A stretch of DNA of 64,000 bases from Eledone cirrhosa (lineage: Eukaryota): contig OZ024741.1 in the NCBI GenBank assembly GCA_964016885.1, positions 226,114,001-226,178,000 of the forward strand, read 5' to 3'. A program made the position numbers and the translations under genes. Positions 8,477 through 60,816 of this stretch are shown in pieces. Positions within the stretch are counted from its first letter, which is position 1; each line of letters starts with the position of its first letter. A model generated the notes under the pieces. It saw only the letters and a list, made by a program, of their open reading frames with translations, did not search any database and was not told the origin of the DNA.

Positions 8477-8868
8477 ATTGGTAAACGGAAAAGAAAATGC
8501 TGACAAATTGTTCCCAGTGAAAAATAGTTTAATTAGGAATAATTAAAATTAGTAATAGCATTGATTAGTATTCAGTTTTGGTTTCAAGGTTTACCGGTTG
8601 CGCATTTCTAATGCTTTTCAAAAATAATTTTGAGATAGAGCGCCCGTGATGTTTGCTCTAATCTGGATTAGAGCAAATCCGGATTAGAGCAAACATCACG
8701 GGCGCTCTATCTCAAAATTATTTTTGAAAAGCATTAGAAATGCGCAACCGGTAAACCTTAAAACCAAAACTGAATACTAATCAATGCTATTACTAATTTT
8801 AATTATTCCTAATTAAACTATTTTTCACTGGGAACAATTTGTCAGCATTTTCTTTTCCGTTTACTAAT
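8477..8868. repeat. Near-perfect ~390 bp palindrome between microsatellites
   Basis: Arms of ~185 bp with about 2 mismatches seen; GGATTAGAGCAAA is duplicated at the centre. Confidence 0.95.
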
Positions 8869-10444: not shown

Positions 10445-11103
10445 TACATATACGTATATATATATATTATATTATATTTTGAGAATAAACTCTCAGTCGT
10501 TTACAATAATTAAGCTCCAGGAAGGGGCTCTTCCGAGCAGTTAAATACATTTAAAGTATATGATAAACACGAAATGTGTTCACATTGCAACAGACAGTCA
10601 GTCCTGCAAAATTTTTGATGTGTGATAGACTAATCTTACTGGATTCCTGTTGATATGCACAGATGATTTGGATATTTCACTCTTTTATTTCTATTCCATT
10701 TCGATTCTCTTTATTTTTCAATTCACATTCCACCATTGCGAAACTTATTTGGGTTTCGAGGTTCAAATTCGTCTACAGAACAGGTTTGAATTTTGAAATT
10801 TAAATATGTCCAGGAATCATGGCTGTTGCCAATATAAGCTTGTCTTTATTGACTTGTATCGAGACAGACAAATTGTATTCACTTTTATTAGTTTATTTCA
10901 TTAATAGCTAACTTTGTCTGTTGCAATGTGAACACATTTCGTGTTTATCATATACTTTAAATGTATATATATATATACATAGAGAAAAGGTGAAGTTGGA
11001 AATAGCTATTTCCATCTTCACCTTTTCCCTATATCCACTGTTTTGTATCGAATCCCTACTCCCCTTTTCCAATACACACACACACAGACACGCGCGCGCG
11101 CAC

Positions 11104-11701: not shown

Positions 11702-11755
<54 letters not shown>

Positions 11756-11756
<1 letters not shown>

Positions 11757-11923
11757 GTAGGTCCCGGGTTGAGTCGGGGATAACCACAGTAAGTAAGGTA
11801 CTCAATACATGGCAGAGTAAAATTTTTTTATTTTATAGAAGGAGCTTCTACAGGACTAGTACCTGAAGATTTCATCTGAATGAAACAGTACTAGTCCTGT
11901 AGAAGCTCCTTCTATAAAATAAA

Positions 11924-11928
<5 letters not shown>
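11756..11928. mobile_element. Short (TA)n-flanked fold-back element with an HHR core in the loop
   Basis: Arms 11822-11862 and 11888-11928; spacer CTGAAGA TTTCATCTGAAT GAAAC A GTA. Confidence 0.75.
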
Positions 11929-11969
<41 letters not shown>

Positions 11970-16216: not shown

Positions 16217-16298
16217 GCTACTCTGGAGTTCCATCTGCTTCTCACAGGGTCATCAGACATCATGATCCTGTGAGAAGCAGGCGAAACTCCAGAGTAGC
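16217..16298. ncRNA. 82 bp palindrome made of two opposed copies of a hammerhead motif
   Basis: Minus arm CTGATGA CCCTG TGAGAAG CAGAT GGAAC TCCAGA GTA; plus arm CCTG TGAGAAG CAGGC GAAAC TCCAGA GTA. Confidence 0.75.
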
Positions 16299-16342: not shown

Positions 16343-16686
16343 CGAAGGAAGTGTGGTAAGGAACCAGATGGACCATAACGCACTAGAGTACTCAATACTT
16401 AGGGCAGTAGGGTGGGTAATAGTAAAAATGTATGACCCCGACGTCAGAGCTCAAGCCGTTTCGACGGCTATTTCGGGATTCGGTCGCAACTCCAGGCAGA
16501 AGGAGCAACGTGAAATAAAGAGTTTTATTCAAGGACATAACGCGTCACCCGGTCCAGAAATCGAAATCACAACCTCACGATTGCAAATCCAATTCCCTTA
16601 CCACTCAGCCACACTCATTGACAAACTCAGAACGAAGAAATAGCTGTCGGAACGGCTTGAGTCTCCAGTCGGGGTCATAACATTTT
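16341..16686 (-). mobile_element. Family C short (TA)n-inserted element with fold-back; centre holds an S2 SINE fragment (16478-16612)
   Basis: Shared tail AACGAAGGA.GTGTGGTAAGGAACCAGATGGACCATAACGCAC.AGAGTACTCAAT, also at 13009, 31254 (reverse complement), 35378 and 52420; arms 16424-16474 and 16637-16686. Confidence 0.8.
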
Positions 16687-19080: not shown

Positions 19081-19193
19081 AATAATAATAATAATAATAA
19101 TAATAAATTTGAAGACTAAATTCCAAAGAGGGCTCGATAAGGGTGAAAGCATTCATTCTTTGCTTAAACTTTAATGTGTTATTTTAATTTAAA

Positions 19194-19224
<31 letters not shown>

Positions 19225-19321
19225 TATAGTAATAATATTAAATTTGAAGACTAAAATCCAAAGAGGGCTCGTTAAGGGTGAAAGTAGCGATTCTTTGCTT
19301 AAACTTTAATCTGTTATTTTA

Positions 19322-19328
<7 letters not shown>
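19081..19328. mobile_element. Two rearranged mini-copies of the family H 3' tail
   Basis: Each is the reverse complement of ~58420-58467 joined to forward ~58323-58378. Confidence 0.85.
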
Positions 19329-19387
<59 letters not shown>

Positions 19388-20231: not shown

Positions 20232-20552
20232 AAAATCCTAAGGCAAGATAAAATTCCAATCATTTCATCACGACACATGTTTCAATAAGAGATAGATCGG
20301 TTGTGAAGCCATGATAGATTATCATTGATCTCATCAGGTAAAAATGAATTGTCTTCAAATTCTTGATATGAGGGAGAAAAAATAACGATGTTCTCTCACA
20401 GAATTCATTCCCTCATATAAGGAATTTGAAGACAATTCATTTTCACCTGATGAAATCAGTGATAATCGATCATGGCTTCACAATCGATCTAGCTCTTATT
20501 GAAACATGTGTCGTGATTAAATGATTGGAATTTTACTTTGCCTTCGGATTTT
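20232..20552. mobile_element. ~320 bp imperfect palindrome with a hammerhead in each arm
   Basis: Arms 20232-20375 and 20408-20552. Confidence 0.9.
20443..20516 (+). ncRNA. Type-I hammerhead with expanded stem II (opposed copy 20268-20340 -)
   Basis: TCAC CTGATGA [47 nt, AAT..ATT] GAAAC ATGT GTC GTGA; intact core, GUC site, 4-bp stem I. Confidence 0.8.
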
Positions 20553-28327: not shown

Positions 28328-28441
28328 TAAATATATATATATATAGATATATATATATACATATGTATATGTGTGTATATATATATATGTATATATACAC
28401 ACACACACACACACACAGACACACACATATATATATATATA

Positions 28442-29010
28442 TCGTTTCTGAATTTGTTTAGCAAGATTCTTTATCTGAAATCGTGTGTTGAAACCGATAT
28501 TGTTATACTTTGGGAGGGTCATGTTGCCAATAAGAAACACACGCACCAGTTGCTTTCACTTCAATTTATTATAATAAATTTATAAATTTAGGAATTTATA
28601 AATTTCTGGTTGGTTGGTTGGTTCCACAACCAGATAGTTGTTTATATATTGTCAAAGTTCTTTCGTCACACATTCTGTGACCTCTTCAGTGACTGGGGAT
28701 TCTTTTCTTTGTTTTTGTGCCTCTCCTTTGTTCTGTCCTACGCCTTTTTGTTTCTGTGTGTGTCAGAAACAAAATGGCGTAGGACAGAACAAAGGAGAGG
28801 CACAAAAACAAAGAAAAGAATCCCCAGTCACTGAAGAGGTCACAGAATGTGTGACGAAAGAACTTTGACAATATATAAACAATTACCTGGTTGTGGAACC
28901 AACCAATCAGAAATTTATAAATTCCTAAATTTATAAATTTATTATAATAAATTGAAGTGAAACAACTGGTGCGTGTATTTCTTATTGGCAACATGACCCT
29001 CCCAAAGTAT

Positions 29011-29015
<5 letters not shown>
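28442..29015. mobile_element. Head-to-head palindrome of two family A 3' tails
   Basis: Minus arm 28442-28762, plus arm 28765-29015; both outer ends lie in (TA)n. Confidence 0.93.
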
Positions 29016-29073
<58 letters not shown>

Positions 29074-31055: not shown

Positions 31056-31252
31056 AATGTTTAACCCCGACGGCAGAGCTCAAGCCGTTTAGGTGGCTAT
31101 TTCTGGACTATTTCAGTCCAGAAATAGCCGTCGAAACGGCTTGAGCTCTGCCGTCGGGGTTAAACATTTTCCTATTACCCACTATACTACCCTAAGTATT
31201 GAGTATTCTGGTGCGTTATGGTCCATCTGGTTCCTTGTCACACTTCCTTCGT

Positions 31253-34612: not shown

Positions 34613-35377
34613 ATTTAAGACTCCCGCAGCCTTCCACCTATTTCAAAGTATTTTTCCCTTTTGTATAATGTTATATCAAATGGGTTTAATGAAGCTGAAG
34701 AATTTAACTTAAAAACAACAAAACCTGAACAGACATGTACATAAAAAAGTTCCAGTTTACTTGATTATATGCAATATATTCTATCAGACAATTCAATAAA
34801 GAATCTTTCAGAATTATTTCCATTCCACTTCCATTCGAAGGGGGGAAAAATTCAATATGTATTTCTATATATTATATATTTATTTATTTATTGAAGATTT
34901 CAATTCATTTGTCGATGTTGTAGCTGTCTTGTTTTATGATCGATTTGGTATCTAATTTTGGTCACTAGTTGTTGAACAATTTCTCTTGTAACTGCTAGTC
35001 TGGTACTGAGAATAATAGTTATAGATCTCTTCACAGATTGTATCGGTTGCAAAAGGCGAGAGAGGCAACAGAAATGGAAAATTTATTTTAGTTTTCCTAT
35101 CGTTATAATTAGGATTATTAGAATTCAGCAAAGATATAGACAGAATTGTAAGCTGATTATAGTTGATATGGAACTAGAGTAACAATCAAAAGGGGGATGC
35201 ATTGTGTGCCGTCCATCTAATTGATTATACAGTTTATGCGATGCAGAGACACTTAGCTTCCAATGGCGCAGAATAGGCAGCTGTAAGTATGTAAAATATA
35301 GTGATATAGTTCATCATTGTCTGCAGAAGCAGCTGAGTTAACAATGTGGGATCACGTTTATATATACTTATATATAA

Positions 35378-35580
35378 CAAAGAAGGTGTGGTAAGATACC
35401 AGGTGAACCATAATGCACCAGAGTAATCGATACTTGGGGTAGTAGAGTGGTTAATATGAAAAGAGTCAGGACCCCAACGGCTGAGCTACGACAGCTACAT
35501 CCAAGTTCCGATCTAATTAGATCCGATCTTACTGTCGAAACGACCGGGCTCATCCGCCGGGGTCCTGACTCTTTTCATAT
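35378..35580 (-). mobile_element. Diverged family C relative with fold-back
   Basis: Tail similarity; arms ~35454-35490 and ~35545-35580; GTCGAAAC near the centre. Confidence 0.7.
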
Positions 35581-35929: not shown

Positions 35930-36488
35930 AATAAATGTAATCTGAGATTTTCGAATATTAATAATAACATTCGATTCATTTGCAATTATGCAAACAACCC
36001 TCAATTTTATAGCCATGTCAGTAGAATGAACACTTCATTCTTGCTCTTTTGTTGGCATGCGAATAGAACTGCAGACACTAATGTTCCTGGGTTTCATCAG
36101 TACAGCTCACTGTTCACCTGCCAAACTGTCAGAGCTAGTGAAAATATATGCTATTAAACAGTGACTGGTTGATCAGTGGATCTGCTAATATGCAGATCTG
36201 ACTAATCAGCCAGTCAGCTAATATGCAAATCAGGCCTATCAGTCACTGTGTATTATTGAAAATAGCATATATTTTCACTACCTCTGACAGTTTGGCAGGT
36301 GAACAGTGAGCTGTACTGATGAAGGGTGATACCCAGAAACATTAATGTCTGCAGTTATGTTCGCATACCAACACAAGAGCAAGAATGAAGTGTTCATTCT
36401 ACTGATATGGCTATACAATTGAGGCTTGTTTGCATAATTGCAAACGAATCGAATGTTATTATTAATATTCGAAAACTCAAATTACATT

Positions 36489-52189: not shown

Positions 52190-52557
<368 letters not shown>

Positions 52558-58477: not shown

Positions 58478-60816
58478 TTGTTATGCTTTGGGAGGGTCAT
58501 GTTGCCTATAAGAAACACACGCACCAGTTGCTTTCACTCCAATTTATTATAAATTAAATTTATAAATTTAAGAATTTATAAATTTCTGGTTGGTTGGTTG
58601 GTTCCACAACCAGACGATTGTTCATATATTGTCAAAGTTCTTTCGTCACACATTATGTGACGTCTTCAGTGGCTGGGGATTCTTTTCTTTGTTTTTGTGC
58701 CTCTCCTTTGTTCTGTCCTACGCCATCTTGTTTTTTTGTTTGCTGTGTGCTTAGTTTGCGCATGTGTTACATCCGGGTGTCTGTGTGTGTTTATATTTGT
58801 TTATTTATTTGTTTATGTACATGTTACTGGTTGGTTGTTTGTTCTATATGTGTGTTTGTTTTCATTTTGTCCTTAATTGTAAGTTGTGATGTTGCTATTC
58901 CATTCATGTTTTCTATTTAATTTTGGTTGGAGTTCATTTATGTTTATTGCCTCTGTGATTCGTCTAAACATTGCGTCTTTTCTGTGTGTAGATTCTATTT
59001 TTATTTCTATGTTCTCTAATTTACCCTCATGTTCTATTTTAGCATGTTGGTGGAGTACAGATGATTCTTTACTATCTTGAAGCTCTCGCCAGTGTTCATG
59101 TATCCGTTCTCCTATACTACGAGCTGTCTCACCTATGTACACTATATTCTTATCTCTACATTGTCCTTCAGTACATCTTAAGCTATATACTACATTTCTA
59201 GTTTTACAGTTAATATGGGACTTAATTTACAGATTATACATTTCTTATCTATACAGGGAGGTCTTTGAAAAGGGTATGTATTGCTAATAAGTGTTTTTAT
59301 GGAGGCACCTGGTCTTTCTACTATCTTAATATTGAGTTTATGTTCATCTAGCGCCCTTCTAAATTTGTAAGCTAGTTCACCTCTAGGGGTTGTATTGAAG
59401 AACATTACACTCTGGTATTTATTGCTATTATACCATGAGTTTATTCTATTAACCTTATTCCTAGATCTTTCTATTCTATTCCAAAATGTGCTTCTCTACA
59501 AGGGGCAGGTCCCATTTGTATCATTATTTACCATTTTTTCCCATTTGGTTCTGGCTCCTCTATATACTCTGATGATATCTCTCTGATTGTAACCAGAGAA
59601 CTGCATACGGTGGATGAAGTGTTGTATGTGTCTCTCTAGTTCTCTGGGGCTGCACATGCGGGACACGTTTCTCATCACCCGTACCAAATCCGCAATCAGT
59701 ATATTGATTTTGGTGTGGTTACAATCAGAGAGATAAAATCAAAGTATATAGAAAAGCCAGAACCAAGTGGGAGAAAATGGTAAATAATGATACAAATGGG
59801 ACCTGCCCCTTGTATAGGAGCAAATTTTGAAATAGAATAGAAGGAACTAGGAATAATATTAATAGAATAAACTCATGGTATGATAGCAAAGAATACCAGA
59901 GTGTAATGTTCATCAATACACCCCCTAGAGGTGAATTAGCTTACAAATTTAGAAGGGCCCTAGATAAACATAAACTCAATATTAGATAGTAGAAAGACCA
60001 GGTACCTCCATAAAAACACTTATTAGCAATACATACCCTTTTCAAAGACCTCCCTGTATAGATAAGAAATGTATAATCTGTAAATTAAGCCCCATATTAA
60101 CTGTAAAACTAGAATTGTAGTATATATCATAACATGTACTGAAGGACAATGTAGAGATAAGAATATAGTGTACATAGGTGAGACAGCACGTAGTATAGGA
60201 GAACGGATACATGAACACTGGCGAGAGCTTCAAGATAGTAAAAAATCATCTGTACTCCACCAACATGCTAAAATAGAACATAAGGGTAAATTAGAGAACA
60301 TAGAAATAAAAATAGAATCTACACATAGAAAAGACGCAATGTTTCGACAAATCACAGAGGCAATAAACATAAATGAACTCCAACCAAAATTAAATAGAAA
60401 ATATGAGTGGAACAGCAACATCACAACTTACAATTAAGGACAAAATGAAAACACACACACACACATAGAACAAACAACCAACCAGTAACATGTAAATAAA
60501 CAAATAAATAAATAAATATAAACACACACAGACACCCGGATGTAACACATGCGCAAACTAAGCACACAGCAAACAAAAAAAACAAGATGGCGTAGGACAG
60601 AACAAAGGAGAGGCACAAAAACAAAGAAAAGAATCCCCAGTCACTGAAGAGGTCACAGAATGTGTAACGAAAGAACTTTGACAATATATGAACAATCGTC
60701 TGGTTGTGGAACCAACCAACAAACCAGAAATTTATAAATTCTTAAATTTATAAATTTAATTTATAATAAATTGGAGTGAAAGCAACTGGTGCGTGTGTTT
60801 CTTATTGGCAACATGA
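58478..60816. mobile_element. Head-to-head inverted pair of 5'-truncated family A PLEs
   Basis: Minus arm 58478-59720 and plus arm 59717-60816, each encoding YIGETARS..ER..EH..LN.K.EWN. Confidence 0.95.

What the first reader, a model, noticed from the sequence alone, without database searches (positions are those of the whole stretch)
11822..11928. Fold-back whose turn is exactly the ribozyme core: HHR helices as snap-back points
Seen: two ~41 bp inverted arms enclose only CTGAAGA-TTCA/TGAA-GAAAC-A. The right arm starts at the predicted GUA cleavage triplet (11888), so stem I is extended into a long hairpin. Other inversions also turn at or beside HHR elements (16217-16298, 31056-31168, 19270, 52375). 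Inference: during PLE-type integration the cDNA stalls or snaps back on ribozyme helices and copies itself, which would give a structural origin for inverted pseudo-LTRs. I am not aware of a description of this bias.
Basis: partly seen in the sequence, partly recalled or inferred. Interest (0 to 1): 0.75.

Follow-up and report, generated by a model that had tools for sequence, protein, structure and literature searches.

The report
Cap-ended Penelope stubs joined head-to-head
This hairpin is one of over a thousand stub insertions of a Penelope-like jumping gene whose turning points vary from copy to copy and pile up at one sharp edge in front of a hammerhead-ribozyme motif, an edge that is likely the capped start of the element's RNA, where two separately made DNA copies were likely joined head to head, rather than a fold-back on ribozyme helices.

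Summary
The hairpin is real: 37-bp perfect arms around a 25-nt hammerhead (HHR) core. It is a 174-bp stub of a Neptune-type Penelope-like element (1,654 exact tail matches) in (TA)n.

It is not a fixed palindrome. The outer ends are fixed and the junction varies. In 98 unbiased copies, 57 of the 100 arms reaching +2 stop within -1..+2, the 5' edge of stem I. None of the other 43 stop in the next 13 nt, and 2 of 156 stop at the cut site.

That edge lies 29 nt behind a TATAAATA conserved in sister families, and arm ends there often carry an extra cap-like G. In two other families the edge lies inside loop II or about 70 nt upstream of the HHR. So it likely marks the capped transcription start, not HHR helices.

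The two arms share source variants and length class, yet differ at +1 in 5 of 11 copies. This favours two cDNAs primed from both target strands and joined head to head. The cut triplet is 11899-11901, not 11888.

The architecture is known. The cap-run-off reading was not found in print, but this scan found it before on other DNA. No RNA 5' end was seen.

The parts
11704..11755 (.). (TA)n target microsatellite, left flank
   Evidence: sequence; the tail end abuts a TA repeat in most family copies printed
11755..11862 (-). Arm 1: element positions +139 to +32 (tail plus 3' half of the HHR); inferred cDNA 1 primed at the fixed tail end E1
   Evidence: L001: a = 32; outer end starts ACG in 94 of 99 copies
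11755..11822 (-). One-sided tail (about +74 to +139), present on arm 1 only; part of the 5' UTR in tandem copies, about 45 nt before the ORF's ATG
11826..11862 (+). Left arm of the perfect 37-bp inverted repeat
11862..11862 (.). Inversion junction, 1-nt overlap (C); joins element +32 (arm 1) to +6 (arm 2)
11862..11928 (+). Arm 2: element +6 to about +72; inferred cDNA 2 primed at the AT-rich site E2 (CTTC-TATAAAATAAAA)
   Evidence: b = 6, c = 73; c = 60-73 in all 68 second arms aligned
11863..11887 (+). Spacer: HHR core CTGAAGA, stem II (TTC/GAA), GAAAC; belongs to arm 2 and is absent from arm 1
11884..11900 (+). HHR stem III (ACAG/CTGT) with an 8-nt loop holding short palindromes
11899..11901 (+). 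Predicted cleavage triplet GUA (cut after 11901); predicted non-functional in this copy
   Evidence: hairpin fold
11902..11907 (+). 3' arm of stem I (GAAGCT); its partner AGCTTC (+1..+6) is lost in this copy except the last C
11888..11924 (+). Right arm of the perfect inverted repeat
11929..11965 (.). (TA)n target microsatellite, right flank

Best explanation
This is a stub insertion of a Neptune-type Penelope-like retrotransposon, likely made when both nicked strands of a (TA)n target primed reverse transcription near the likely capped 5' end of the element's RNA and the two short cDNAs were then likely joined head to head. Steps: (1) Shown: the element reads TATA box (-29), +1, HHR (+1..+51), site E2 (+57..+73), tail to E1 (+139), ATG (about +184), RT/GIY-YIG ORF, 3' UTR of about 2 kb, next TATA. 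(2) Inferred: Pol II starts at +1 or +2, so the HHR sits at the very 5' end of a capped RNA. (3) Shown: the outer ends are fixed at E1 and E2. Inferred, by analogy with the two internal RT start sites of PAc: these are priming sites for the two target strands. (4) Inferred: priming at the 5' copy of E1/E2 gives cDNAs of at most 140 nt that run off the cap, often miscopy +1 and add a C; priming at the 3' copy gives long arms. (5) Inferred: the two 3' ends are trimmed and joined by microhomology or short fill-ins, for which HHR palindromes are handy but not required. This copy was trimmed to +32 and +6, which by chance leaves the core as the spacer.
For: Wall: 57 of 100 arms reaching +2 end in -1..+2, and 0 of 43 end in -2..-14 (98 copies). 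Genome-wide, 931 arms leave the native sequence at +1/+2 (262 + 669, undercounted by a last-letter filter) against 658 that read through. TATAAATACC and CCC|AG are kept in 4 of 4 aligned family and sister copies while the 20 nt between them drift. Family B has its wall 30 nt behind TATTTATT, inside loop II (45 of 117 arms). Family C has 12 inner ends 56-75 nt upstream of its core and none in the next 33 nt (read by hand). Cap-like letter: after GGAAGC plus a non-native base the next letter is C in 68 of the first 100 rows (hand tally); in the A-first class 30 of 52, p = 5e-7 against 25%. G-N-GCTTCC ends also occur at direct tandem junctions (L297, L301, L302). Pairing: 56 short-short, 12 long-long, 1 mixed (Fisher p = 1.5e-12). 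The +61 C variant is on both arms in 7 of 7 copies and +50 T in 3 of 3. The +1 base differs between arms in 5 of 11 copies, and 15 of those 22 arm ends have C second. Precedents: two internal RT starts bracketing the tail and uncut RNA as main template (PMC11167929); extra G from the cap and twin priming in L1 (PMC11702581 passages).
Against: No RNA 5' end was observed, so the start site is inferred from DNA alone. The C excess is unclear in family B (T then C 10, G 13, A 9, T 2). Many C's in family A could come from the partner arm: 26 of 40 are C[C]TGAAG joins. 18 of 56 short-short copies, like the window copy, have neither end at the wall. Family C shows a second cluster of 10 ends at -5..+21 around its HHR, three at the same GTCAC edge. 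How two RTs copy the same 60 nt of one RNA is unexplained. Left-right asymmetry (21 against 13, p = 0.23) does not exclude later centre-break deletion. 29 of 98 copies had no second arm in the fetched DNA. All 98 copies come from the first 234 Mb of one contig.
Confidence: 0.72

Rival explanations
1. One cDNA runs to the RNA 5' end, folds back or is hairpin-capped and copies itself; the palindrome centre is later eroded by centre-break deletion.
For: Arms share variants and length class. Zero-spacer AGCT palindromes are common: 5 of 56 short-short copies and 47 of the first 100 rows, where most such copies give two rows. Self-priming was proposed in PMC3846280. Erosion is roughly symmetric (21 against 13).
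Against: In 21 of 56 copies arm 2 holds more than 3 nt that arm 1 lacks. The +1 base differs between arms in 5 of 11 copies, and each arm carries its own N-C end. A zero-loop fold-back primer is sterically unlikely (inference). A separate event is needed to stop arm 2 at E2.
Confidence: 0.12
2. One reading: RT stalls or the cDNA snaps back on HHR helices, so the ribozyme structure sets the turn.
For: The wall coincides with the 5' edge of stem I in this family. Joins often use HHR palindromes or helices. One of 100 rows and L300 match a stem-I fold-back. Family C has 10 ends around its HHR.
Against: End density falls steadily away from the wall with no helix peak. RT would meet stem I from its 3' side, where 1 of 156 arms end. 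The wall is in loop II in family B and about 70 nt upstream in family C. The HHR region folds no better than shuffles (z = -0.9). Naiads make inverted copies without canonical HHRs (PMC8557442).
Confidence: 0.07
3. The wall is a 3' splice site (AG at +1/+2) and the extra letters are the end of a tiny upstream exon.
For: CAG in family A and TAG in family B lie at the wall. In D. virilis Penelope the intron end maps to the 5' end of helix I (PMC4209133 passage).
Against: The AG is kept in most stubs. No shared exon sequence follows the wall, and the middle letter varies. There is no pyrimidine tract, and the branch-like word is not kept in sisters while the TATA box is.
Confidence: 0.05
4. A fixed palindromic MITE-like or SINE-like unit, or a junction set by ribozyme cleavage.
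For: The 40 best genomic matches all contain a hairpin, but that sample was chosen by likeness to the query.
Against: Junctions differ between copies, and the tail is one-sided. Only 2 of 156 arms end at +44..+47.
Confidence: 0.02

Closest known systems
Endonuclease-positive PLE insertions with an inverted 5'-truncated pLTR and a one-sided tail (PMC8557442 passages; PMC3846280 passages)
   Same: Head-to-head inverted copy, tail on one side, partial tandems, HHR in the pLTR, microsatellite target; putative TATA and Inr in the pLTR were noted for A. vaga.
   Different: Here more than half of the copies are stubs under 200 bp with no ORF; the tail is about 65-80 nt rather than 30-40; inner ends hit a base-sharp wall with a cap-like letter. 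PMC3846280 favours self-priming on an antisense template, whereas these data favour two cDNAs from sense capped RNA.
PAc (Poseidon of Anolis) in vitro (PMC11167929, parts 1-2 of 4 read)
   Same: Two internal RT start sites bracketing the tail, both target strands cut and extended, AT-rich target, HHR cleavage not needed.
   Different: The parts read do not address the inversion junction, cap run-off or stub formation; different clade; there the HHR overlaps the ORF start.
L1 twin priming and 5' extra G (PMC11702581 passages)
   Same: Second primer from the other target strand, microhomology join, extra G at full-length 5' ends.
   Different: In L1 the two cDNAs cover adjacent, nearly non-overlapping parts and priming is at poly(A). 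Here both cover the same 5'-proximal bases and give a true palindrome.
Retroviral minus-strand strong-stop DNA (recalled, no call)
   Same: Short cDNA primed near the 5' end that runs off the cap; jumps to another RNA position are seen (L286, L296, L301).
   Different: Target-primed, no tRNA primer, integrated as it is; an obligatory strand transfer is not shown.
Non-LTR retrozymes (bioRxiv 10.64898/2026.07.22.740005 passages)
   Same: Short HHR-bearing PLE-derived sequence.
   Different: Not a tandem monomer family; each stub has its own junction and lacks the promoter.

Membership tests
EN+ Penelope-like element | Single ORF with RT and C-terminal GIY-YIG | tested here: met
   L305 holds an unbroken ORF with a YRDD-type motif and a YIG motif (motif names recalled). 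1,454 homologues, best ones about 40% identical over the full length, 2 of the 120 listed with PF01541. Direct Pfam and PDB searches gave nothing useful.
EN+ Penelope-like element | pLTR by partial tandem, inverted 5'-truncated copy, one-sided tail | tested here: met
Neptune clade | CX2-5CxxC-like linker between RT and EN; TA-repeat target | tested here: met
   CxCNCPDKTTCPLNNNC linker; clade description in PMC8557442. Nematis shares the linker.
Neptune clade | RT phylogeny with reference PLEs | not tested
   no named reference set at hand
Type I hammerhead ribozyme | CUGANGA / GAAA / UH core with three helices | tested here: met
   13 of 13 pairs formed in 4 of 4 sequences, one double change, N7 varies. 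The covariation is not significant (126 of 500 shuffles). Stem II lacks the usual G-C closing pair; no Rfam match among the rows shown.
Type I hammerhead ribozyme | Self-cleavage | not testable with these tools
   needs an assay; the minimum-energy fold keeps stem I but not stems II and III
MITE | Fixed consensus with terminal inverted repeats | tested here: not met
   junction varies, tail one-sided
Pol II TATA/Inr promoter | TATA about 30 nt before an Inr-like +1 | tested here: met
   TATAAATA at -29 kept in sisters; TATTTATT at -30 in family B
Pol II TATA/Inr promoter | Capped RNA 5' ends at +1 | not testable with these tools
   only assembled contigs were served
Non-LTR retrozyme | Tandem HHR monomers | tested here: not met
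   the one tandem among the listed places (L082) repeats a whole insertion with its flank; L294/L295 is a short two-unit direct repeat

The most novel reading that the evidence does not exclude
Penelope-like elements have a strong-stop step: RT starts within 140 nt of the cap, two cDNAs are made from one capped RNA on the two target strands, and they either join head to head (inverted pLTR stubs) or jump to another RNA (tandem pLTRs). Thousands of genomic stubs would then record start site, cap and a miscopied first nucleotide at base resolution, and would explain both kinds of pseudo-LTR.
Probability: 0.45. Interest if true: 0.75.

Novelty: new variant of a known kind. Interest (0 to 1): 0.5.

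Why it matters
How Penelope-like elements make inverted and tandem pseudo-LTRs is called open in PMC8557442 and PMC11167929. These stubs give base-exact predictions for the existing in vitro system: two primed strands, run-off at the cap, an extra C, and no need for ribozyme helices or cleavage. They also offer a way to map PLE promoters from DNA alone, and they put a hammerhead at the very 5' end of a likely capped RNA, where cutting would remove the cap. The single copy in the window is ordinary; the value lies in the population pattern.

Tried and rejected
Rfam scan: only microsatellite and hairpin miRNA noise among the rows shown.

Best-hit search: set aside for statistics because it selects junctions like the query's; tail-only patterns were used instead.

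All-against-all BLAST timed out on microsatellites.

Pfam and PDB gave no meaningful hit for the ORF; the protein atlas gave no result.

RNA evidence: the run search returned contigs only, with small shares in runs guessed to be RNA. Depth rises near +1 in X12 but also in X18, and X15 and X16 laid nothing, so one search is uninformative.

Cleavage-defined junction rejected: 2 of 156. Fixed palindrome rejected. GUA at 11888 rejected.

The families at 16217 and at 19270/52375 were not sampled.

Rows dropped or corrected: L082 counted once of three; the window copy left out of the 98; two second-arm starts set by hand in family A (L079, L098) and seven copies in family B; family C read by hand because the aligner slips in AT-rich repeats. 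Tallies are by hand, cover the first 100 of 262 and of 669 rows, and count both arms of some insertions.

Literature: 8 searches found no description of cap-ended PLE stubs or of HHR-biased junctions. Schostak 2008, Arkhipova 2006 and Evgen'ev and Arkhipova 2005 were not read. No supplements were read; Fig. S2 of PMC11167929 and file S1 of PMC8557442 may bear on start sites and on whether this family is already catalogued.

Full report
Observation. The arms are 11826-11862 and 11888-11924, 37 bp with no mismatch, around CTGAAGA-TTTCATCTGAAT-GAAAC-A. The fold is far beyond chance: z = -14.8, 0 of 200 shuffles. The unit runs from 11755 to 11928 between two (TA)n tracts, with about 70 bp of unpaired tail on the left.

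Family. The genome is 3.0 Gb. A tail 27-mer has 1,654 exact matches and its reversed control has 0. I took the first 100 listed places, all on contig C1 and chosen without regard to the junction. Counting one triple tandem once left 98 copies, which I mapped on a real long copy, L085. Position +1 is the A of AGCTTCC. Long copies run through a 3' UTR of about 2 kb into a GIY-YIG-type coding region. Twenty-two places continue past the tail. Several of them show the partial-tandem order 3' UTR, TATA, HHR, tail, ATG, and L305 holds an unbroken ORF with RT motifs, a Cys linker and a YIG motif. Its best homologues are about 700 aa and 40% identical, and 2 of the 120 listed carry PF01541. By the linker and the TA target it is Neptune-type (clade description); no tree was built.

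The ribozyme. Read-through copies give stem I AGCTTC/GAAGCT, core CUGAAGA, a 3-bp stem II, GAAA, stem III ACAG/CUGU and the triplet GUA, which is window 11899-11901. Three sister copies keep all 13 pairs, with one double change and N7 varying. With four sequences this is not significant (126 of 500 shuffles). The window copy lacks most of the 5' arm of stem I and is predicted to be inactive.

Junctions. Outer ends are fixed: +139 on arm 1, +60 to +73 on arm 2. Inner ends vary. Of 167 arms (98 first arms, 69 second arms found), 57 of the 100 that reach +2 end in -1..+2 and 0 of the remaining 43 end in -2..-14. End density falls steadily on the 3' side: +3..+6 has 16 ends, the core 16, stem II 14, stem III with its loop 7, and the cut-site zone 2. 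Genome-wide, 262 and 669 arms leave the native sequence at +2 and +1, both undercounts, against 658 that read on. The window copy (+32 joined to +6) is one of the trimmed kind, like 18 of 56 short-short copies. Among the 26 of the 30 best matches that one search printed, only L002 has a nearly identical junction. That its spacer is exactly the core looks like chance near the wall.

What the wall is. TATAAATA lies at -29 and is kept, with CCC|AG, in three sister copies whose intervening bases drift. In family B (window 31056; 1,520 matches) 45 of 117 arms end in -1..+2 of AGTCCAG and 10 go beyond. That point lies 30 nt behind TATTTATT and inside loop II of an HHR whose 5' core is degenerate. 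In family C (window 28400-29018; 7,918 matches) most of 70 copies are long. Twelve inner ends lie 56-75 nt upstream of the core and none in the next 33 nt, though 10 ends also lie around the HHR (by hand). So the wall follows a promoter-like position rather than a helix.

The extra letter. After GGAAGC plus a non-native base, the next letter is C in 68 of the first 100 rows. In the A-first class, which is least open to join artefacts, it is 30 of 52 (p = 5e-7). After the native T, 13 of 26 rows left after removing the common joins have C (p = 0.005). On the RNA strand this reads G-N-GCUUCC, like the cap-derived G of full-length L1 (PMC11702581). The same ends appear at direct tandem junctions, so they belong to the template end and not to fold-back. 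The signal is unclear in family B. A splice site remains a minor rival, since D. virilis Penelope has an intron ending at helix I.

One cDNA or two. Arms are paired by class (56 short-short, 12 long-long, 1 mixed; p = 1.5e-12) and share source variants (+61 C in 7 of 7 copies, +50 T in 3 of 3). They therefore come from one RNA or one locus. But arm 2 holds bases that arm 1 lacks in 21 of 56 copies. Where both arms reach +2 and are not AGCT palindromes, the +1 base differs in 5 of 11 and 15 of 22 ends have C second. This fits two run-off events better than self-copying, and agrees with the two internal starts and two extended strands of PAc. Later centre-break erosion is not excluded. Junctions in short-short copies are 27 overlaps of 1-6 nt, 5 blunt and 22 with inserts (two hand-set copies not reclassed). 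Helix and palindrome microhomologies are used, and a stem-I fold-back product is seen rarely.

Known and new. The inverted copy, tail, tandems and TA bias are described, and self-priming was proposed in 2013. Eight searches found no account of cap-ended stubs; key older papers and all supplements were unseen. I stated this reading before opening earlier scan notes. Several of them reach it on other DNA, which is not independent evidence, and two report junctions at the cut site in other genomes, which does not hold here.

Verdict. A real feature, an ordinary single copy, and an informative population.

Noticed in passing
L305:351 onward (G000:C1, about 164.618 Mb): Unbroken Neptune-type ORF directly behind a TATA-HHR-tail junction, followed by a second, diverged Neptune-type element with a broken frame.
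   Followed up: partly
L286, L296, L301 (also L287, L297, L300, L302): A cDNA that reached +1/+2 continues from about +170 to +330 of another unit; three do so near the same TATAACC. These look like template jumps from the RNA 5' end.
   Followed up: partly
window 31056-31168, 16400-16500, 35370-35580, 52390-52490: Family B and relatives: GAAAC-stem III-GUC intact but the 5' core reads TTGAAAA or TTAAAAA in read-through copies, and the wall cuts the motif in loop II, so stubs carry only half a hammerhead.
   Followed up: partly
window 28400-29018, 58497-60816; cores at 2945, 21127: Family C, Penelope/Poseidon-like, 7,918 tail matches; AAAATGGCG just inside and GCGCATGCGC just outside its wall (YY1-like and NRF1-like by recall).
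   Followed up: partly
window 19090-19330 and 52290-52375; L185: A further stub family whose core appears to read CAGAAGA rather than CTGANGA.
   Followed up: no
window 16217-16298; flank of L163: Stub family turning at the 5' end of a CTGATGA core; wall not sampled.
   Followed up: no
window 8481-8864, 20232-20552, 35948-36475, 10545-10966: More inverted insertions in TA tracts, most with a one-sided tail; only 35948-36475 has a canonical core, 100-200 nt from its turn.
   Followed up: no
L082: A whole insertion with its microsatellite flank is repeated three times at a period of about 1,060 bp.
   Followed up: no
L145, L146: Family C copies with dense T-to-C changes on the strand shown (A-to-G on the RNA strand) across the HHR region, like hyper-edited RNA copied into DNA.
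   Followed up: no
many loci, e.g. L002, L090, L184, L190, L283: Stubs of different PLE families nest in each other's TA tracts and form clusters.
   Followed up: no
L048, L040, L057: One arm has a short internal deletion in the HHR that the other arm lacks.
   Followed up: no
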